The notes under the pieces: generated by a model
Databases searched by the model: none
What the model saw: only the letters and a program-made list of their open reading frames with translations
What the model was told of the DNA's origin: nothing
Program-made: the position numbers and the translations under genes
Shown: positions 19,258 through 46,759 of the stretch, piece by piece
Numbering within the stretch: the stretch's first letter is position 1
Layout of the letters: every line of letters starts with the position of its first letter
Source: Candidatus Melainabacteria bacterium
GTDB taxonomy: Bacteria; Cyanobacteriota; Vampirovibrionia; 2-02-FULL-35-15
Length of the DNA: 48,186 nucleotides
Direction: 5' to 3'
Assembly (NCBI GenBank): GCA_016178265.1
Contig: JACOTS010000092.1
Coordinates: 1 to 48,186, forward strand

Positions 19258-19300
19258 GCTCGGCTTTGCCAAATAAATTGGACAAAGCCGAGCTTTATAT
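19258..19300 (+). terminator. Intrinsic-terminator-like hairpin with no upstream same-strand gene
   Basis: GCTCGGCTTTG (19258-19268), 14-nt loop, CAAAGCCGAGC (19283-19293), followed by TTTATAT on the plus strand. The minus-strand reading lacks a T-tract. Confidence 0.35.
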
Positions 19301-35008: not shown

Positions 35009-37756
35009 ATGCCTCATTCATCAAAAGAAATAAGGGAATCCTGGATAAACTTCTTCTCTGAGCGTGGACATAAGCATGTTTCAAGCAGTTCACTAATACC
35101 AGATAATCCAACTTTGCTTTTAACCAGTGCAGGAATGGTACAGTTTGTACCATATTTTCTAGGACTTAAAGAGCCTGCTTTCAAAAGAGCTGTAACCATT
35201 CAAAAATGTGCACGTGCCGGCGGAAAAGATTCTGATTTGGAAAATATTGGAAGAACCACAAGACACCATTCATTTTTTGAAATGCTTGGTAATTTTAGCT
35301 TTGGCGATTATTTTAAAAAAGAAGCGATTACATGGGCATGGGATTATGTCACAAAAACATTAGAACTTCCTAAAGATAAATTAATTGTTTCTGTATTTGA
35401 AGGAGACACAGACACTCCTCCTGACGAAGAAGCATATAATATTTGGAAAAAAGAAATAGGATTATCAGATGGCAAAATCAGGAAGCTTCCAAGAAAAGAA
35501 GTTTTCTGGGGTCCTCCTGGACCGACAGGACCTTGCGGACCATGTTCTGAGATTTATTTTGATAGAGGAGATGGTTTTAAAGATCATGACGAGAGATTCC
35601 TTGAAATATGGAATCTTGTTTTTATGGAGCTTGAAAAAGATGAAGATGGAAAGTTCAAGCCTCTTGCAAAGAAAAACATAGACACAGGAGCAGGGCTTGA
35701 AAGAATTGCGCTTTTGCTTCAAAATAAGCCAAATACATTTGAAACTGATCTTTTAAGACCAATATTAGATAGCGTTTCAGAAGTTACTAAAACTAAATAT
35801 ATTGGACAAGAGGCAAGGGACAAGGGACAACAAGTATTAAATTCTGATTTGAGTCTAAAAATAATTACTGATCACTTAAGGTGTATAACTTTTTTAATTG
35901 CAGATGGTGTAAGGCCTAGCAATATAGGGCGTGGTTATGTACTTCGTATGCTTACAAGACGGGCTGCAAGATTTGGATGGCTCTTAGGTACAAAAGAACC
36001 ATTTTTATATAAGCTTCCTAAAATAGTAAGTGACAATTATTCATTTGTGTACCCAGAAATCAGCAAAAACCTAAATGTGATTATTGAAACAATTCAAAAA
36101 GAAGAAGAACGTTTCGCAGAAACAATTGAAAAAGGGCTTATTTATTTGGATGAAGTAATAGCCAACTCAGGAAAAACTATCTCTGGAGAGAAAGCGTTTG
36201 ATTTATATTCTACTTATGGTTTTCCAGTAGAGCTTACTTTAGATATTGCAAAGGAAAAAAATAAAGATATTGATATGAAAAGCTTTGAAAAAGCTAAGGA
36301 GAAACATTCTGAAGTTTCTGGTGGCGAGATGTTTGATGTAAAGCTTACTACTGGAAAGCATTATGGAGAATTACTTAAAGAATTTGGAGAGACAAGGTTT
36401 TTAGGTTACACACAAGAAACTTGCAAAAGCAAGGTATTAGCTTTAATAAATCAAAATAGAGAAATAGTAAATGAGTTAAAAGAAAGTGAAACAGGAGAAC
36501 TTATACTAGATCAAACTGTATTTTATGCAGAATCAGGAGGACAGGTGGGTGACACTGGAAAAATTATTGCAGAAAATAAAGCATTTGAGGTTATTGTTAC
36601 TGATACACAAAAACAGGAAGGACTTTTTGTACACCACATCAAAGTTACCAAAGGAAGCATAAAGCACAATACTACTGTAAATTGTGAACTTGATAGAGCT
36701 AAAAGAAACAGAACCAAACATCACCACAGCGTAACCCACCTAATGCATTCAGCACTTAGAAAAGTATTTGACGAAAGTCTGCAACAAGCAGGATCTGAGG
36801 TAAATCATGAAAGAACAAGGTTTGATTTTACATTGGACAGAGGGGTTACTGATGAAGAAAAAAGAAACATAGAAGACATGGTAAATAACTGGATAAAAAA
36901 GGCACTTCCTGTTGAAGCTAAAGAAATGACATTTAATGAAGCAATGCAAACAGGAGCACTTGCATTTTTTGGTGATAAATACGGAGATATAGTTAGAGTT
37001 CTGAAGATGGGAAATGAAAAAGATCTTGCAAGTGTTGAGCTTTGTGGAGGTACTCATGTACAAAATACAAGTGAAATAGGCGGTTTTAAGATCATAAAAG
37101 AAAATTCAATTGCAGCAGGAACAAGAAGAATAGAAGCTATTGCTGGAGAGGTACTTAAAGAATATATAAAAGAATTAAACGAGAAACATGAAAGGCTTAA
37201 AATAGAGCTTTTGGGAAAAGATAAGAACTTAAAAGCTTCTTTTAAACAGTATGGTTTAGAAGATAAATGGGAAGAATTGACAAAAGAATATGGCAATCTT
37301 GCAACAGATGGGCTAACCCCTGCCATACAAGAGAAATACAAAAAGGCAAATAATATTTTAACTAAAAAATTTGCCACTATTTATACCGATAGTTTAAAAC
37401 TAAAAGAAAGTGCTACAGAAAAACTATCAAATGGTATAAGCCTATTTTGTATAGAACTAGATGATTTCCCTGATGATGTTGTAAGAACTTTCATTGAGGG
37501 AAAACTAAAATCCGAAAAGGCTTATGTAACAATTATTGCAAATATAACTGAAGACAATAAGCTTAAATTTACGGCTGGAGTATCAAAGGATTTAACAGCA
37601 AAAGGGATAAATGCAAAGGATCTTGTAAATAAAGTAGCTGAAGTTACAGGCGGCAAAGGTGGCGGCAAAGATAATTTTGCACAAGCAGGCGGAAGAGATA
37701 TTACTAAGGTAAAAGAAGCTCTTAAAACTGGCAGAGAGCTGATAAGTAAAAATTAG
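35009..37756 (+). CDS. alaS: Alanine--tRNA ligase
   Basis: 915 aa. FFSERGHKHV, TSAGMVQF, RHHSFFEMLGNFSFGDYFK, WGPPGPTGPCGPCSEIYFD, HHSVTHLMH editing-domain motif, CGGTHV, C-terminal GGKGGGK (DHHA1). Confidence 0.95.
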   Translation: MPHSSKEIRESWINFFSERGHKHVSSSSLIPDNPTLLLTSAGMVQFVPYFLGLKEPAFKRAVTIQKCARAGGKDSDLENIGRTTRHHSFFEMLGNFSFGDYFKKEAITWAWDYVTKTLELPKDKLIVSVFEGDTDTPPDEEAYNIWKKEIGLSDGKIRKLPRKEVFWGPPGPTGPCGPCSEIYFDRGDGFKDHDERFLEIWNLVFMELEKDEDGKFKPLAKKNIDTGAGLERIALLLQNKPNTFETDLLRPILDSVSEVTKTKYIGQEARDKGQQVLNSDLSLKIITDHLRCITFLIADGVRPSNIGRGYVLRMLTRRAARFGWLLGTKEPFLYKLPKIVSDNYSFVYPEISKNLNVIIETIQKEEERFAETIEKGLIYLDEVIANSGKTISGEKAFDLYSTYGFPVELTLDIAKEKNKDIDMKSFEKAKEKHSEVSGGEMFDVKLTTGKHYGELLKEFGETRFLGYTQETCKSKVLALINQNREIVNELKESETGELILDQTVFYAESGGQVGDTGKIIAENKAFEVIVTDTQKQEGLFVHHIKVTKGSIKHNTTVNCELDRAKRNRTKHHHSVTHLMHSALRKVFDESLQQAGSEVNHERTRFDFTLDRGVTDEEKRNIEDMVNNWIKKALPVEAKEMTFNEAMQTGALAFFGDKYGDIVRVLKMGNEKDLASVELCGGTHVQNTSEIGGFKIIKENSIAAGTRRIEAIAGEVLKEYIKELNEKHERLKIELLGKDKNLKASFKQYGLEDKWEELTKEYGNLATDGLTPAIQEKYKKANNILTKKFATIYTDSLKLKESATEKLSNGISLFCIELDDFPDDVVRTFIEGKLKSEKAYVTIIANITEDNKLKFTAGVSKDLTAKGINAKDLVNKVAEVTGGKGGGKDNFAQAGGRDITKVKEALKTGRELISKN

Positions 37757-38391
37757 CTGCAGTTAAATACAGCCTTTAAAAGCGGCATTACACCATTTAC
37801 AATATACTGAACTCCAATACAAAGAAGTATAAATCCCATGATTCTATTAAATGAACTGATTGTTGTAGCACTCATTTTTTGTGAGATAAAAGGAGCTAGC
37901 CTTAAAAAGGCATAACATAAAATTGCTACAAGAATAATAGTTAAAAGAATAACAGGATAATGCAGCCAAGATTTTGCATCAGTAGTCATTCCTATAATCA
38001 CAGCAATGGATCCAGGTCCGCTTAAAAGGGGCATTGCAAGGGGTGAAAATGCAATATCATCTTTTTCTTCAGATTCAGTTTGTTCTTTTGGTAAAAGCTT
38101 TTCTTTTTTTTGAAGCATTTCAATTGCAGATCCAATAATCATAAGCCCTCCGGCAATACGAAGCCCTTCAAGTGATATTCCAAAAAATGTTAGAATAACT
38201 CCTCCAGCAATAAAAAATAAAAGCATAATTCCAAGTGCATAAATGCTTGCTTGCTTAGCTATTGCAATTCTTTTTTGTGGGGTATATTTTTCAGTTAGGG
38301 AAACAAAAACAGGCACAGCAAGTAGTGGATCCACTATTGAAAACAGTGAAACAAAAGAGCCTACAAAAAATAACAAGAATTCATTTCCCAT
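37753..38391 (-). CDS. MarC-family (UPF0056) integral membrane protein
   Basis: 212 aa. FVSLFSIVDPLLAVPVF N-terminal family signature and six hydrophobic segments. Confidence 0.8.
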   Translation of the reverse strand: MGNEFLLFFVGSFVSLFSIVDPLLAVPVFVSLTEKYTPQKRIAIAKQASIYALGIMLLFFIAGGVILTFFGISLEGLRIAGGLMIIGSAIEMLQKKEKLLPKEQTESEEKDDIAFSPLAMPLLSGPGSIAVIIGMTTDAKSWLHYPVILLTIILVAILCYAFLRLAPFISQKMSATTISSFNRIMGFILLCIGVQYIVNGVMPLLKAVFNCS

Positions 38392-38449
38392 AAGAAATGG
38401 TATTCTAGCATTTTTTTACGTAATGCATTATTTTAGGGTGTGTCAGAAA

Positions 38450-38560
38450 TTCGAGGATAAAGCGGGTGGCACCGGTGGGGTAGGAGTCAAAAACTGAGGA
38501 ACGAAGTTTTTGAAGGGGACCCCAGAGGTGACAGGACCCGCGTCGTTTGTCATCCTCGAA
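38450..38560. other. GC-rich 111-nt imperfect long hairpin (candidate cis-regulatory RNA or MITE/REP-like element) in the marC / decarboxylase divergent intergenic region
   Basis: Nested complementary segments: TTCGAGGAT 38450-38458 with ATCCTCGAA 38552-38560; GCGGGT 38462-38467 with ACCCGC 38536-38541; CACC 38470-38473 with GGTG 38527-38530; TGGGGT 38476-38481 with ACCCCA 38519-38524; AAAAAC 38489-38494 with GTTTTT 38506-38511. Apical loop TGAGGAACGAA. Composition is strikingly G+C-rich against the AT-rich flanks. Confidence 0.6.
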
Positions 38561-38621
38561 CTCTTTACAGATCCATTATTTTAGTAAGGAATCCATGCGA
38601 TACTATATAAACAAGGGGTAA

Positions 38622-40151
38622 ATGGTGAATAAAAAAGCTACTGAATTAAAAGAACAAAAGCTAGGCGACATAGATGTTAAGTTATTTAAAAAACACGGCT
38701 ATGAGCTAATTGATTGGATAGCTGAATACCTGTCAAACATTGAAAAATACCCCGTTTTATCCCAAGTTAAGCCTGGTGATATTAAAAACAATCTTCCAAA
38801 ATCACCTCCTGAAAAAGGTGAAAGCATGGAAAAAATAATGGAAGATTTTAACAAATACATTGTTCCAGGTCTTACTCATTGGAATCATCCAGGATATTTT
38901 GCATATTTTTCTTGTACAAGTTCATACCCTGGAATACTTGCAGAGCTTCTTACCGCAGGGATAAATCAACAAGGCATGCTTTGGAGAACATCTCCTGCAC
39001 TTACAGAGGTAGAAGAAGTAACATTAGCTTGGCTTAGAGAGTTAATTGGACTGAAAGATGATTTTTTTGGAATAATTTATGATACTGCATCTATTTCTAC
39101 ACTGCATGCAATTGCAACTGCAAGAGAAGCTTTGAACTTAAAAATCAAAGAAGAAGGAATGATAAATAAAAAAGAACTTATGCCTCTTAAGTTATATACA
39201 TCTGAACAAACACACTCATCAATTGAAAAAGCAGCTATTACACTTGGAATAGGACAAAAAAACGTTAGAAAGGTAGCGGTTGATGATGCTTTCCAAATGG
39301 ATCCAAAAGCACTTATAAACTGTATTGAAGAAGATATTAAATCAGATTGTATACCATTTTGTGTTGTTGCAACAGCAGGAACTACCTCAACTACAAGCAT
39401 TGATCCAATCCCTGAAATTGCTGAGATTTGTAAAAAATACAAACTTTGGTTACATTTAGATGCTGCTTATCTTGGTATTGCAGCAATTGTACCTGAAATG
39501 AAACATATTACCGTAGGCTGGAATGAAGTTGATTCTTTTGTAGTAAATCCTCATAAGGGATTATTTACCCCGATGGATTTAAGTGCATTTTACTGTAAAA
39601 AGCCTGAGCTGCTTAAAAAAGCATTTAGTCTGGTTCCTGAGTATCTAAAAACAGATACAGGAGATGAAGCAAAAAATCTATATGATTATGGGATACAACT
39701 TGGAAGAAGATTTAGAGCACTTAAACTTTGGTTTATTATGCGTACTTTTGGAAAAGAGGGTTTAATAAATCGCATTCGTGAAACAATTAATCTTGCAAAA
39801 ACTTTTGCTAAGTGGGTAGAAGAAAGTGAGAAGTTTTATATCCTAGCTCCTGTTACAACAAGTTTGGTTTGTTTTAGATATCTCCCGAAAGACTTAAAAG
39901 AAAAGATAGAAAGAAATGAGAATGTAGAAGCTATTGAAGAATACTTAAACAAATTAAATGAAGAGATTATGAATGCAGTAAATGCAACTGGCAAGGTTTT
40001 TATATCTCATACCAAACTACACGGAAGATTTACGCTTAGGCTTGCTATTGCAAATCTTAGGACAACTGAAAGGCATATAAAAGATGCATGGGAAACATTG
40101 AACCAACTAGCACTAAAAATAGATAAAGAACTTAGAAGCACATTTATATAG
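38622..40151 (+). CDS. PLP-dependent aromatic-L-amino-acid decarboxylase (group II decarboxylase, DDC/TDC-like)
   Basis: 509 aa. HWNHPGYFAYFSCTSSYPGILAELL, SPALTEVEEVTLAWL, HLDAAYLG and NPHKGLF (PLP-lysine motif) closely parallel animal/plant DOPA/tryptophan decarboxylases. AAGGGG Shine-Dalgarno. Confidence 0.85.
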   Translation: MVNKKATELKEQKLGDIDVKLFKKHGYELIDWIAEYLSNIEKYPVLSQVKPGDIKNNLPKSPPEKGESMEKIMEDFNKYIVPGLTHWNHPGYFAYFSCTSSYPGILAELLTAGINQQGMLWRTSPALTEVEEVTLAWLRELIGLKDDFFGIIYDTASISTLHAIATAREALNLKIKEEGMINKKELMPLKLYTSEQTHSSIEKAAITLGIGQKNVRKVAVDDAFQMDPKALINCIEEDIKSDCIPFCVVATAGTTSTTSIDPIPEIAEICKKYKLWLHLDAAYLGIAAIVPEMKHITVGWNEVDSFVVNPHKGLFTPMDLSAFYCKKPELLKKAFSLVPEYLKTDTGDEAKNLYDYGIQLGRRFRALKLWFIMRTFGKEGLINRIRETINLAKTFAKWVEESEKFYILAPVTTSLVCFRYLPKDLKEKIERNENVEAIEEYLNKLNEEIMNAVNATGKVFISHTKLHGRFTLRLAIANLRTTERHIKDAWETLNQLALKIDKELRSTFI

Positions 40152-41311: not shown

Positions 41312-42721
41312 TTAATTTAAGTTAGTACTTAGTGTTAGCTGATATATTTTTTCAAGCTTACGGCTTGCTATATCTGATTCAGGATTTAAATTAATAATAA
41401 CTCTATTAAATTGAAGGGTTTTGCCTTCATACTTATTGGGGTTACTAAAATATATAACTTTAGCTAAAGCTCTACACGATTTCTGCTTTTCCCTTTTACT
41501 ATGTTCTTTAGCAATTCGCCTAAGTAAAACATCCCATCTTGATGGATCAAATTGGTTAATCAATTTATCAACACTTAATGGTTCTTCTACTCCTTCGCTA
41601 TTAAAGAGAGAAATCTCCACTGTCTCTTTTGTTGAGGGATAAAAGTGATCAAAGCATGGATATACAGCAAAAGGCCATGAATCAATCTTATTAAAGCCAC
41701 AATAAATTACACAAACTATTATAAAAGTACTGATATAAATAGTGGCATTATGTTCATTAGTTATTCCTGTTGACCTAGCATAATTAATTCTCCTTTTCAA
41801 TATGTTTTCCCAATCAACAAAAGCAAAATATAGTACAAGCAAGTACCAAAATGATATTTTCATAAATACGTAAGTTACACTGTGAAAGATAAGTCCCATT
41901 ATCAACCAATATTTTCTATACTTGTCAGAAAATATCGCAAAAATAAAACTTATTTCAAATAAAATTACTAACAGTCCACCAAATTGGAGAAAAAATGGAT
42001 AATGATCAATTCTAAATAAAGGAGCAAAATCATTTAATCTAGCCCATCTATCATACAAAATAAAATTTAAGTTATCCCCTAAAAACCAATCAACCCCACA
42101 TGACCAAAGTTTCCAAAATCCGGGGAAGAAATATATTAATCCAAGTATCAACCATATAAATCTTATAGGCATAGAGTACATTTCTGGTGCATAGGACTTA
42201 ATTTTAGATTTATTTATTAGAATTAAACTATCAATAGATAGCAAGTCACCACATCTAGCGGTCGACAATATAAAAGAGCACCATAACAAGTGATGGATAT
42301 GATAGCTTTTCCCATATAACTGCGGAATCCCAAGTACATACAATCCTAAAAGTGAAGCTAGAATCATTGATGGCCTTGTAAAAAAGCCTATCATAGAAGT
42401 AAAACAAAAAAAAATGAATAATTGTTTTGCAACTAGTACTAGTTTGCTGTTAACAGGAAATAAGTTTGTAAAATAACCAGAGTCATAAATTAGTTCATCT
42501 GGCAAACTTGAGAGCCAGTAAGAATTATTAAAGCCTTTAAAAGACACTAAAATCAACGCACAAAAGAGGATAATTCTAAAAATAGCTAAGCTTAACATAG
42601 AGGATCTTTGTGGAAACAAAAAGTGCATTAATCTTGTAAAAAGATTTTGCTTTCTAGAAACATACAATAAAAATATACCTAATAAAAGTAAAAATATAAT
42701 TTGAGTAATTAATAGTTCCAT
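41312..42721 (-). CDS. HTTM-domain membrane protein (vitamin K-dependent gamma-carboxylase homolog), paralog A
   Basis: 469 aa. N-terminal SLAIFRIILF motif typical of HTTM domains, multiple TM segments, CGDLLSIDSLI, PIRFIWLILGLIYF, RIDHYP. About 130-aa C-terminal soluble domain. Confidence 0.55.
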   Translation of the reverse strand: MELLITQIIFLLLLGIFLLYVSRKQNLFTRLMHFLFPQRSSMLSLAIFRIILFCALILVSFKGFNNSYWLSSLPDELIYDSGYFTNLFPVNSKLVLVAKQLFIFFCFTSMIGFFTRPSMILASLLGLYVLGIPQLYGKSYHIHHLLWCSFILSTARCGDLLSIDSLILINKSKIKSYAPEMYSMPIRFIWLILGLIYFFPGFWKLWSCGVDWFLGDNLNFILYDRWARLNDFAPLFRIDHYPFFLQFGGLLVILFEISFIFAIFSDKYRKYWLIMGLIFHSVTYVFMKISFWYLLVLYFAFVDWENILKRRINYARSTGITNEHNATIYISTFIIVCVIYCGFNKIDSWPFAVYPCFDHFYPSTKETVEISLFNSEGVEEPLSVDKLINQFDPSRWDVLLRRIAKEHSKREKQKSCRALAKVIYFSNPNKYEGKTLQFNRVIINLNPESDIASRKLEKIYQLTLSTNLN

Positions 42722-45367: not shown

Positions 45368-46759
45368 CTAATCTATTTTTAGTGAAATTATAGTTTTCAA
45401 GTTAATAGGATTGTTATTATATTCTTCAGGAATAGTAGAAAATAAACCTTCATAAAACACAATATAGGATGCTTCTCTAATATCTGGAATATTATTAAAT
45501 AATAACTTACTAATTGCATTGCATAGCTTTATTTGTTCAGCCTTAGATTTAGAATTCGCGACATAGTTTAAAATATATTCCCATCTACCAGGTTCAATTT
45601 TTTTTTTGATTATGCGAGTATTAATATCAATTTCTTTTCCATCAACATTAAAAGCTTTAATAATCAATGTTTTTTTTCTAAACTGCTTAAAATTAATGAA
45701 TCGATATTGGAGATCTTTGTTGCTAAAATTCGGATAAGCGGAAAAAGGCCATGATTTAATTTCCCTAAACCCAACATATGATTGTATAAGAATTAAAGTT
45801 ACGCCAGTTAAAACTATTGGTACAATTGATTTTTTAACAGTATTAACAGGGCTAGGTTTTACTACATTTTTAATTAGGCTCCCAAAATTAATAAAAGATA
45901 GATAACAACATTGTAGGGTCCAAAAAGAAATGTGCAAGAAGACTAAAGTCAAATTATGAAAAAAGATTCCACAAATAATAGCATATTTTCTCAAATTGTC
46001 AGAAAATATTAAAAATATAAACAATAATTGAAACATGACAATAAGGAATGGAAGACATCTTAATAAAATAGGATAGTGATCAATTCTAAGAATAGGGATG
46101 TTATTGCCAACAAACCAAGTAAACCAATAAGAGTAAAGGATATGTTGAAAGAAAGGAGTATCTGTTAACCAATAATGTTTACTTCCTAGGAGTTTCCATA
46201 TACCTGCATAGAAGTATATAAGTCCAATGAGTATCCATACAAACCTAATAGGAAGTGCATAGAGCACACTGGTTGTATCTTTAATTAAGTTTATAGTCTT
46301 AGTTTTTCTATAATCATCAATAATGCAATCTAGAGACAAACTATCACCACACTTAGACATCAATAACAGTAGTTGAAACATAAACAAATGATGATGAGCA
46401 TGTTGAATCTTTCCAAAAATATGAGTTAGGGCAATTAAGTAAAAACCAGAAACAATGGAAACTCCTATTGAAATATTAGTAAAAAGGCCAAGAAGCGCAA
46501 AGATTGTTGAAATTTTAAATATTATGATAAATATAACTATCAATTGATGTGTGTATGGAATACATTCTTTAATCCACCTTACAGCTGGTTCAGCGATTCG
46601 TAACTCTTCAGGGATATTATAAAACCAAATATAATCAATGTTAAATGAGGAAATAATTAACGTTGAAAATACTACTATTCTAAACATGGCAAGGTTCAAT
46701 GAAGAATCTTTAGCAGTAAAGAATTTGTTGCCTTTAAGGAATAGATCTCTTATAAACAT
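45368..46759 (-). CDS. HTTM-domain membrane protein (vitamin K-dependent gamma-carboxylase homolog), paralog B
   Basis: 463 aa. SLNLAMFRIVVF, CGDSLSLDCII, PIRFVWILIGLIYF, RIDHYP and IFSDNLRKY are collinear with paralog A. 10-nt overlap with the upstream SDR gene. T10 tract at 45598-45607 (A10 on the coding strand). Confidence 0.55.
   Translation of the reverse strand: MFIRDLFLKGNKFFTAKDSSLNLAMFRIVVFSTLIISSFNIDYIWFYNIPEELRIAEPAVRWIKECIPYTHQLIVIFIIIFKISTIFALLGLFTNISIGVSIVSGFYLIALTHIFGKIQHAHHHLFMFQLLLLMSKCGDSLSLDCIIDDYRKTKTINLIKDTTSVLYALPIRFVWILIGLIYFYAGIWKLLGSKHYWLTDTPFFQHILYSYWFTWFVGNNIPILRIDHYPILLRCLPFLIVMFQLLFIFLIFSDNLRKYAIICGIFFHNLTLVFLHISFWTLQCCYLSFINFGSLIKNVVKPSPVNTVKKSIVPIVLTGVTLILIQSYVGFREIKSWPFSAYPNFSNKDLQYRFINFKQFRKKTLIIKAFNVDGKEIDINTRIIKKKIEPGRWEYILNYVANSKSKAEQIKLCNAISKLLFNNIPDIREASYIVFYEGLFSTIPEEYNNNPINLKTIISLKID

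What the first reader, a model, noticed from the sequence alone, without database searches (positions are those of the whole stretch)
38437..38565. GC-rich 111-nt nested hairpin immediately upstream of the aromatic amino acid decarboxylase gene
In a 230-nt AT-rich divergent intergenic region there is one sharply G+C-rich island. It folds into a long imperfect hairpin with five nested helices (coordinates in the feature list) and an 11-nt apical loop TGAGGAACGAA. It ends about 60 nt before the decarboxylase start codon and about 60 nt from the marC start on the other strand. It is therefore positioned as a 5' leader for either gene. It shares only a TGTCAT core with the shorter palindromic repeats elsewhere in the window. 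It matches no riboswitch consensus I can recall. It does contain GGGTGGCACCG, which resembles the T-box core GGGUGGNACCG. It could be a novel cis-regulatory RNA (sensing ligand, tRNA or amine), a small RNA, or a miniature mobile/REP-type element.
Basis: seen in the sequence. Interest (0 to 1): 0.62.

Follow-up and report, generated by a model that had tools for sequence, protein, structure and literature searches.

The report
Small mobile hairpin repeat (MITE) insertion
The GC-rich hairpin in front of the decarboxylase gene is one copy of a small non-coding jumping element (a MITE) that recently inserted there in one strain of an uncultured groundwater Melainabacteria bacterium; it is not a conserved regulatory RNA, so the finding is essentially ordinary.

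Summary
The hairpin is real. It spans 38436-38574, about 44 base pairs (RNA fold -58 to -59.5 kcal/mol, z -4.6 on + and -6.0 on -), at 53% G+C in a 32% genome.

It is a recent insertion, not a gene leader.
- It is flanked by a perfect direct duplication, CATTATTTTAG.
- It has imperfect terminal inverted repeats.
- Close relatives have an 85-nt marC-decarboxylase spacer with that target sequence only once (two assembled contigs plus one Logan contig with a 148-nt skip).
- Nearly identical copies (96-99%) lie at two unrelated sites, beside rsmE and downstream of tRNA-Ala, each with its own duplication. The rsmE site is empty in the window's own strain.
- In groundwater metagenomes, contig depth rises 10-60 fold exactly over the element, and contigs break at its ends into many different flanks.

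Rfam gives no match, T-box included.

A second 139-nt subfamily has other ends and an 8-bp duplication. It shares the 80-nt core, with helices kept through compensatory changes.

[quoted passage not shown] The autonomous parent was not found. Any effect on marC or the decarboxylase is untested. Low to moderate interest.

The parts
38426..38436 (.). Upstream copy of the target-site duplication CATTATTTTAG. The identical flank is 11 nt. If the element's end bases G and C are counted in the element, the duplication proper is the 9 nt ATTATTTTA at 38427-38435.
   Evidence: Direct reading. The empty sites L010 and L011 carry this sequence once. The Logan contig joint 38425->38574 has 11 letters that fit either side.
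38436..38574 (+). Type a MITE, 139 bp (137 bp if bounded at 38437-38573). It is non-coding, 53% G+C, and folds as a long imperfect hairpin.
   Evidence: Folds. Missing from orthologous loci. Copies 96-99% identical at other loci. Contig depth rises 10-60 fold between 38436 and 38571.
38436..38458 (+). Left terminal inverted repeat GGGTGTGTCAGAAATTCGAGGAT.
   Evidence: In the copies it pairs with the reverse complement of the right end, GG(G/A)TCTGTAAAGAGTTCGAGGAT. The inner 9 nt, TTCGAGGAT, pair perfectly.
38552..38574 (+). Right terminal inverted repeat ATCCTCGAACTCTTTACAGATCC. Other copies end ...ACAGACCC.
38462..38541 (+). Conserved 80-nt G+C-rich core hairpin, shared with the type b subfamily. 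Helices are GCGGGU/ACCCGC, CACC/GGUG, UGGGGU/ACCCCA and UCAAAAACU/AGUUUUUGA. The apical loop GAGGAACGA is at 38496-38504.
   Evidence: 54 of 80 positions are identical to L005 3414-3493, with the same helices and compensatory changes. The core pattern matches only known copies.
38574..38584 (.). Downstream copy of the target-site duplication CATTATTTTAG.
37753..38391 (-). marC-family membrane protein gene. It is a neighbour, not part of the element.
   Evidence: Pfam MarC, E 3.7e-57.
38622..40151 (+). PLP-dependent (group II) amino acid decarboxylase gene, a neighbour. The start is probably the GTG at 38625, because the ATG at 38622 reads ACG in relatives.
   Evidence: Pfam Pyridoxal_deC, E 6.5e-101. 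Alignment A3. The relatives' proteins are 508 aa.

Best explanation
[quoted passage not shown] Its host is an uncultured groundwater Candidatus Melainabacteria bacterium.

Likely mechanism (inferred):
- A transposase encoded elsewhere binds the imperfect terminal inverted repeats (GGGTGTGTCAGAAATTCGAGGAT ... ATCCTCGAACTCTTTACAGACCC).
- It makes staggered cuts about 9 nt apart in an AT-rich intergenic target and joins the element.
- Repair of the gaps produces the flanking direct duplication.

What is shown:
- In the window's strain the element landed inside the 85-nt divergent marC/decarboxylase spacer and lengthened it to 230 nt.
- The hairpin exists because the element is palindromic over its whole length. 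It pairs almost entirely by Watson-Crick pairs and so folds on either strand.
- The insertion, its duplication, its mobility and its multicopy state are all shown.

What is inferred:
- The type of transposase (DDE, acting in trans).
- Any effect on expression of the two neighbouring genes.
For: 1. Empty sites. L010 (ENA ERZ27293412) and L011 (JGI 3300025142) have the same marC and decarboxylase genes, an 85-nt spacer and a single CATTATTTTAG. A 1878-nt Logan contig in run X5 joins 38425 to 38574, skipping 148 nt, with 11 letters fitting either side.

2. Target duplications at three independent sites. The window has CATTATTTTAG. L003 and L013, beside rsmE, have CAATCATTA(G). L004 and L005, downstream of tRNA-Ala, have CTGCCAACC/CTACCAACC.

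3. Reciprocal polymorphism. The rsmE site is filled in L003 and L013 but empty in L012, which is from GCA_016196635.1. That assembly carries the filled marC site (L008).

4. Multicopy state. Logan contig word depth rises from 5.6 to 140 (X1), 9.8 to 556 (X2), 3.5 to 106 (X3) and 4.3 to 47 (X4), exactly between 38436 and 38571. Contigs break there into at least 8 different left flanks in X2 alone. The element's words occur in 17 runs of groundwater and sediment metagenomes.

5. Terminal inverted repeats. No ORF attributable to the element; the only ORF of 40 aa or more that reaches into it (38243-38497, +) starts inside marC on the opposite strand.

6. Only 0-2 G.U among 42-46 pairs on the + strand and 1-4 on the - strand. 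It also folds significantly as DNA.

7. No Rfam family matches.

8. The features match the definition of prokaryotic MITEs: under 500 bp, TIRs, flanking direct repeats, intergenic AT-rich targets, stable stem-loops (PMC10969869).
Against: - No autonomous insertion sequence with these ends was found. There is none in the 134 kb of window plus loci held, and none in plasmid, phage or viral collections. Mobilisation in trans is therefore inferred.
- The element is G+C-rich (53%) in a 32% genome, whereas MITEs are typically AT-rich (PMC10969869).
- Depth ratios come from community metagenomes. Copies per genome cannot be separated from copies in related strains.
- The 80-nt core is conserved, with compensatory changes, in a subfamily with different ends. 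This hints at a constraint on the structure that simple parasitic spread does not by itself explain.
Confidence: 0.9

Rival explanations
1. A MITE that also has a host-level or element-level function through its hairpin. The conserved G+C-rich core might act as an RNA (stabiliser, processing site, terminator/insulator or small RNA) when transcribed from a neighbouring gene. Alternatively it might act as a DNA hairpin or cruciform needed for transposition.
For: - Two subfamilies with unrelated outer arms and different duplication lengths (9-11 bp against 8 bp) keep the same 80-nt core and the same asymmetric internal loops.
- The apical 9-bp helix differs at 7 of 9 pairs yet stays paired, and GCGGGU/ACCCGC becomes GUGGGU/ACCCAC.
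- Within type b, 3423 A>G and 3481 T>C are the two partners of one pair. Each is at about half the depth in four runs. Other common variants fall in loops.
- Two of the three type a sites lie in divergent promoter regions, 30 and 47 nt upstream of a co-oriented start codon.
- MITE-derived small RNAs and terminator-like MITEs are known (PMC10969869).
Against: - No transcript data exist. The one run returned for RNA is of unknown kind and holds a single contig.
- No promoter on the + strand and no terminator-like site were found by the consensus scan.
- Pairing is almost purely Watson-Crick on both strands, so nothing points to one RNA strand.
- Only two lineages were compared, and linkage of the two population variants was not shown.
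- The orientation bias (2 of 2) has no statistical weight.
Confidence: 0.12
2. A conserved cis-regulatory leader RNA (T-box-like or a new riboswitch) controlling the decarboxylase or marC.
For: - It sits between the two start codons.
- The fold is stable and significant.
Against: - No T-box or other Rfam hit, even at E<=10.
- Absent from the same spacer in close relatives, whose genes are intact.
- Present at unrelated loci: the rsmE spacer and downstream of tRNA-Ala.
- Flanked by a target duplication.
Confidence: 0.02
3. A REP/REPIN-type or IS200/IS605-type palindromic element, moved as single-stranded DNA by a Y1 (HUH) transposase such as a RAYT or TnpA.
For: - Extragenic, G+C-rich, palindromic and multicopy.
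- The structure is conserved through compensatory changes.
Against: - Those elements insert without target-site duplication and lack terminal inverted repeats (established knowledge of the families, not tested here; the REP size and head are as described in the abstract of PMC3733652, listed).
- Here perfect 8-11-bp duplications flank four independent insertions, and the empty sites hold the target once.
- At 139 nt it is much longer than REPs of 20-40 bp.
Confidence: 0.02

Closest known systems
Prokaryotic MITEs in general, for example QMITE2 of Coxiella burnetii, MITEAba12 of Acinetobacter and Correia elements of Neisseria (PMC10969869, PMC6382973)
   Same: - Short and non-coding.
- Terminal inverted repeats.
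- Flanking target duplications: QMITE2 7-9 bp, MITEAba12 9 bp.
- Intergenic AT-rich targets.
- Multicopy, with presence/absence differences between strains.
- Transcripts or strands predicted to fold into a very stable stem-loop.
   Different: - No sequence similarity to any of them was seen (no hits in plasmids or phages).
- It is 53% G+C in a 32% genome, whereas MITEAba12 is 78% A+T and MITEs are typically AT-rich.
- It is palindromic over its whole length, not only at the ends.
- The parent IS is unknown.
Whole-length palindromic repeats: ERIC/IRU of enterobacteria and Rickettsia palindromic elements (named in PMC10969869; their properties are from my own knowledge)
   Same: Imperfect palindromes of about 100-150 bp, dispersed and able to fold as long hairpins.
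   Different: - Here there are clear recent target duplications and matching empty sites.
- There is no sequence relationship, and the host phylum is different.
- No in-frame insertion into genes was seen.
IS66 family, ISBst12 group, for example ISDge4 of Deinococcus geothermalis (PMC12898284)
   Same: The sister subfamily, type b (L005 3385-3523), has ends GTAACTGTTCACCT and GTATCTGTTCACCT. The ISDge4 ends are GTAACTGCTCAGCA and GTGACTACTCAGCA. 11 of 14 positions match between GTAACTGTTCACCT and GTAACTGCTCAGCA. Both make an 8-bp duplication.
   Different: - The window's type a ends (GGGTGTGTCAG / GGGTCTGTAAAG) do not start with GTAA.
- Its duplication is 9-11 bp.
- No transposase gene was found.
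- The resemblance is a lead for the parent of type b only.
Nezha and other cyanobacterial MITEs (cited in PMC10969869; their details are not held in this library)
   Same: MITEs of the sister lineage of Melainabacteria.

Membership tests
Prokaryotic MITE | Short (under 500 bp) and without a transposase gene | tested here: met
   137-139 bp. The only ORF of 40 aa or more that reaches into it (38243-38497, +) starts inside marC on the opposite strand.
Prokaryotic MITE | Terminal inverted repeats | tested here: met
   GGGTGTGTCAGAAATTCGAGGAT against GGGTCTGTAAAGAGTTCGAGGAT (reverse complement of the right end). 17 of 23 match, and the inner 9 are perfect.
Prokaryotic MITE | Target-site duplication flanking each copy, with the target present once at empty sites | tested here: met
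   Three type a sites have their own duplications. Empty sites were found for two of them: L010, L011 and the X5 contig for the window's site, and L012 and L015 for the rsmE site.
Prokaryotic MITE | Many dispersed copies | tested here: met
   Contig depth rises 10-60 fold over the element, with many different flanks. Three assembled sites. Copies per single genome were not resolved.
Prokaryotic MITE | A cognate autonomous IS with matching ends in the same or a related genome | not testable with these tools
   None in the 134 kb held. Viral, plasmid and phage collections were negative.
   No T-box match at gathering score in the window, nor at E<=10 in 38350-38680.
T-box riboswitch / any cis-regulatory leader | Conserved position upstream of orthologous genes | tested here: not met
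   Absent from the marC-decarboxylase spacer of L010, L011 and the X5 contig.
REP / REPIN (RAYT-mobilised) | Palindromes of 20-40 bp (abstract of PMC3733652), inserted without target duplication (my own knowledge) | tested here: not met
   139 bp with 8-11-bp duplications.
IS66 family (ISBst12 group) derivative | Ends like those of ISDge4 (GTAACTGCTCAGCA / GTGACTACTCAGCA) and an 8-bp duplication (PMC12898284); that IS66-family ends in general begin GTAA is my own knowledge | tested here: not met
   Type a begins GGGT and has a 9-11-bp duplication. The sister type b does meet both: GTAAC/GTATC ends and 8 bp.

The most novel reading that the evidence does not exclude
The 80-nt G+C-rich core hairpin may be a selected, portable module rather than filler. 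At least two MITE subfamilies carry it. They have unrelated ends and different duplication lengths, so probably different transposases. The core's helices are maintained by compensatory substitutions. It could be a mobile structured RNA (stabiliser, terminator/insulator or small-RNA precursor) spread through promoter regions of Melainabacteria. Alternatively it could be a DNA hairpin that the transposition machinery itself needs.
Probability: 0.12. Interest if true: 0.55.

Novelty: new member of a known kind. Interest (0 to 1): 0.27.

Why it matters
- It removes a false lead. There is no new riboswitch or T-box in front of the decarboxylase gene.
- It documents a previously undescribed MITE family, with at least two subfamilies, that has been recently active in uncultured groundwater Melainabacteria. 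Insertions differ between co-existing strains.
- Such elements break short-read assemblies. Contigs end at the element's borders.
- They can serve as strain markers.
- By splitting short divergent promoter regions they may change expression of neighbouring genes.
- The conserved G+C-rich core shared by subfamilies with different ends is the one feature that could repay further work.

Tried and rejected
Searches that found nothing relevant:
- Rfam over the whole window at gathering score: no match.
- Rfam at E<=10 on the region: only chance hits outside the hairpin (SAM-II at E 1.8, CrcZ at E 7.8). Nothing for type b either.
- A second copy inside the window: none.
- A 20-mer scan of 185,579 reference genomes: two chance hits in G+C-rich genomes, where only the 20-mer aligns.
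- The metagenome scan: two further chance hits, L006 and L007.
- Viral contigs with three patterns, and plasmids and phages with blastn: nothing relevant.
- RNA runs: one run of unknown kind with a single low-depth contig, so no evidence on transcription.
- Promoter and terminator scan: no + strand promoter, no terminator, and no more hits than in shuffles.
- Fuzzy search of all held DNA for a full-length IS with the type a or b ends: none.
- The decarboxylase with its ATG start is not on record as a called gene in the contig index, though the same 509-aa sequence is in the protein collection.

Steps not taken or not possible:
- A covariance model was not built. Only two divergent variants were available, and MAFFT mis-registers one strand of type b by one column. 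Helices were compared by script instead.
- The FEMS review of IS families could not be read.

Readings rejected:
- T-box or riboswitch.
- REP/REPIN.
- IS200/IS605-type palindromic element.
- Intrinsic terminator.

Full report
**The observation**

The 230-nt spacer between marC (37753-38391, -) and a PLP-dependent group II decarboxylase gene (38622-40151, +) contains a sharp G+C island. Gene identities rest on Pfam hits at E 3.7e-57 and 6.5e-101. G+C reaches 56% in 100-nt windows against about 30% on either side, and the window as a whole is 32.4%.

The island folds into a long imperfect hairpin.
- As RNA the + strand gives -59.5 kcal/mol (z -4.63) and the - strand -53.3 (z -5.99).
- As DNA it gives -31.8 (z -5.63).
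- None of 200 shuffles folded as well in any of the three cases.
- It is the longest local inverted repeat in the 48-kb window.

The full structure spans 38436-38574 (139 nt, about 44 pairs) with a 9-nt apical loop.

**It is not a known RNA**

Rfam release 15 gives no match in the whole window at gathering score. A permissive scan of 38350-38680 at E<=10 returns only two chance hits outside the hairpin and no T-box. The resemblance of GGGTGGCACCG to the T-box core is therefore not backed by the model.

**It is an insertion**

The element is flanked by two identical copies of CATTATTTTAG, at 38426-38436 and 38574-38584. Three independent records of the same locus in related strains lack the element.
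- L010 (ENA ERZ27293412) and L011 (JGI 3300025142) encode decarboxylases from the same 90% identity cluster and a 212-aa MarC. Their spacer is 85 nt and holds CATTATTTTAG once. The alignment opens a clean gap exactly over the element plus one repeat copy.
- A 1878-nt Logan contig in run X5 is 2-8% diverged from the window. It covers 37900-38425 and then continues at 38574. The joint skips 148 nt, and 11 letters fit either side of it.

That is the signature of a transposon's target-site duplication together with its empty site.

**It is a dispersed, multicopy, recently mobile repeat**

In Logan contigs of four groundwater metagenomes, summed word depth rises sharply exactly between 38436 and 38571.

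| Run | Depth in the flanks | Depth over the element |
|---|---|---|
| X1 | 5.6 | 140 |
| X2 | 9.8 | 556 |
| X3 | 3.5 | 106 |
| X4 | 4.3 | 47 |

Contigs break at those borders and run into many different flanking sequences, with at least eight distinct left junctions in X2. These ratios come from communities, so they are upper bounds for copies per genome.

A metagenome scan recovered full copies at two other loci.
- One lies between rsmE and a 177-aa ORF (L003; also L013). It is 99% identical and flanked by CAATCATTA(G).
- One lies downstream of tRNA-Ala(TGC) (L004 and L005). It is 96% identical and flanked by CTGCCAACC/CTACCAACC.

The rsmE site is empty in L012 and L015. L012 comes from NCBI assembly GCA_016196635.1, which carries the filled marC site (L008). 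So one lineage has marC filled and rsmE empty, and the other has the reverse. This shows transposition after the lineages split.

The source names of the proteins place all these contigs in Candidatus Melainabacteria MAGs. The element's words occur in 17 public runs, nearly all from groundwater or sediment metagenomes.

**Anatomy**

The ends are imperfect inverted repeats: GGGTGTGTCAGAAATTCGAGGAT on the left and, as reverse complement, GG(G/A)TCTGTAAAGAGTTCGAGGAT on the right.

Because the end bases G and C match the target's neighbours, each boundary is ambiguous by one base.
- One reading is a 139-bp element with a 9-bp duplication. This fits all three sites uniformly.
- In the window, the alternative reading is a 137-bp element with an 11-nt identical flank.

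There is no ORF attributable to the element. Pairing is almost purely Watson-Crick, with 0-2 G.U among 42-46 pairs on the + strand and 1-4 on the - strand. The palindrome therefore folds on either strand, and nothing marks one strand as an RNA.

**A sister subfamily with the same core**

A weak BLAST hit led to L005 3385-3523, here called type b. It lies between the converging ends of a 574-aa ORF, whose upstream neighbour carries PmbA/TldD domains, and an HD-domain gene.
- It is 139 nt long, with ends GTAACTGTTCACCT and GTATCTGTTCACCT and an 8-bp duplication GAAATAAT.
- Its site is empty in L018, from GCA_016196635.1.
- It is also multicopy. Depth rises from about 8 to about 200, with many flanks and more polymorphism than type a.

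Its outer arms are unrelated in sequence to type a, but the central 80 nt are 68% identical with the same architecture.
- GCGGGU/ACCCGC becomes GUGGGU/ACCCAC.
- CACC/GGUG is kept.
- The apical 9-bp helix changes at 7 of 9 pairs and still pairs.
- The asymmetric internal loops are kept.

Within the type b population, 3423 A>G and 3481 T>C are the two partners of one pair in the CACC/GGUG helix. Each is at about half of the depth in four runs. Other common variants lie in the loop or in unpaired positions. Linkage of the two variants was not shown. Contigs that share only part of the core and then diverge suggest further subfamilies.

**The parent element**

No full-length IS with these ends exists in the 134 kb held. 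Nothing similar is in the viral contigs, plasmids or phages. The scan of reference genomes returned only chance hits.

From the literature, ISDge4 (IS66 family, ISBst12 group) has ends GTAACTGCTCAGCA and GTGACTACTCAGCA and makes an 8-bp duplication (PMC12898284). That matches the type b ends at 11 of 14 positions, and the duplication length also agrees. This is a lead for type b only. The window's type a has GGGT ends and a 9-11-bp duplication, so its transposase family is open.

**Mechanism and consequences**

The best-supported mechanism is mobilisation in trans by a transposase that recognises the terminal repeats and makes staggered cuts. This is inferred from the inverted repeats and the duplications. 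The enzyme itself was not found.

The insertion split an 85-nt divergent control region. It left 44 nt next to marC and 47-50 nt next to the decarboxylase start. The start is probably the GTG at 38625, because the ATG at 38622 reads ACG in relatives. An effect on one or both promoters is plausible but untested. The consensus scan finds no outward promoter and no terminator, and no usable RNA data exist.

**Comparison with what is known**

The element meets the structural definition of a prokaryotic MITE in PMC10969869: short, with TIRs and direct repeats, in intergenic AT-rich targets, and forming a stable stem-loop. It resembles QMITE2 and MITEAba12 in size and duplication length.

It differs in three ways.
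- It is G+C-rich in an AT-rich genome.
- It is palindromic along its whole length.
- Its core is shared between subfamilies with different ends.

It fails the tests for T-box and riboswitch, and for REP/REPIN and IS200/IS605-type elements.

**Verdict**

This is a new family of a known kind of element. The finding is largely ordinary. The conserved structured core is the one point worth following.

Noticed in passing
L005 3385-3523 (same locus as L016 3717-3855): A second 139-nt hairpin MITE (type b). It has ends GTAACTGTTCACCT and GTATCTGTTCACCT and an 8-bp duplication GAAATAAT. It is multicopy in the same metagenomes, and its site is empty in L018. It shares the 80-nt core of the window's element. 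Its ends resemble those of ISDge4 (IS66 family, ISBst12 group).
   Followed up: yes
L003 2793-2900, L015, and L005 7345-7510: A different repeat of about 100 nt (TATACCGCTCGTTTCGCAC..AATGCTCA..TCGCTCC...CGACGCTTTTTGG..AAATNACACAAAAAGCTTAT) sits in the rsmE spacer of some strains and beside tRNA-Ala. It is absent from that spacer in L012. It may be another mobile or repeated family. No copy is in the window.
   Followed up: partly
window 19258-19293; L005 7683-7712; L012 rsmE spacer: Short palindromes built on TTTGCCAAAT..ATTGGACAAA, for example GCTCGGCTTTGCCAAAT AT ATTGGACAAAGCCGAGC in the window. They recur in intergenic regions of these Melainabacteria contigs and look like a REP-like short repeat family.
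   Followed up: no
window 38622-38627: The ATG at 38622 reads ACG in two related strains, whose proteins are 508 aa. The conserved start of the decarboxylase is therefore probably the GTG at 38625.
   Followed up: partly
L010 431-2224, compared with window 37753-37756: In the related strain a 597-aa gene with no Pfam hit lies between alaS and marC. In the window the ends of alaS and marC overlap by 4 nt, so that gene is absent. This is another strain-specific indel next to the MITE site.
   Followed up: no
window 41312-42721 and 45368-46759: Two paralogous ORFs of about 465 aa with no Pfam match lie 4074 nt apart. They are separated by sulfotransferase and MurJ genes, in what looks like a cell-envelope polysaccharide region (repeats D6 and D14).
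   Followed up: no
runs X4, X5, X8 at window 38437-38471: Contigs match the first 35 nt of the element exactly and then run into unrelated sequence (TCCTCATATGTGTCTTTCTCAGTTCTCAGG). This could be the end of a longer relative, possibly the autonomous parent, or a copy interrupted by something else. The contigs cannot be read further with these tools.
   Followed up: partly
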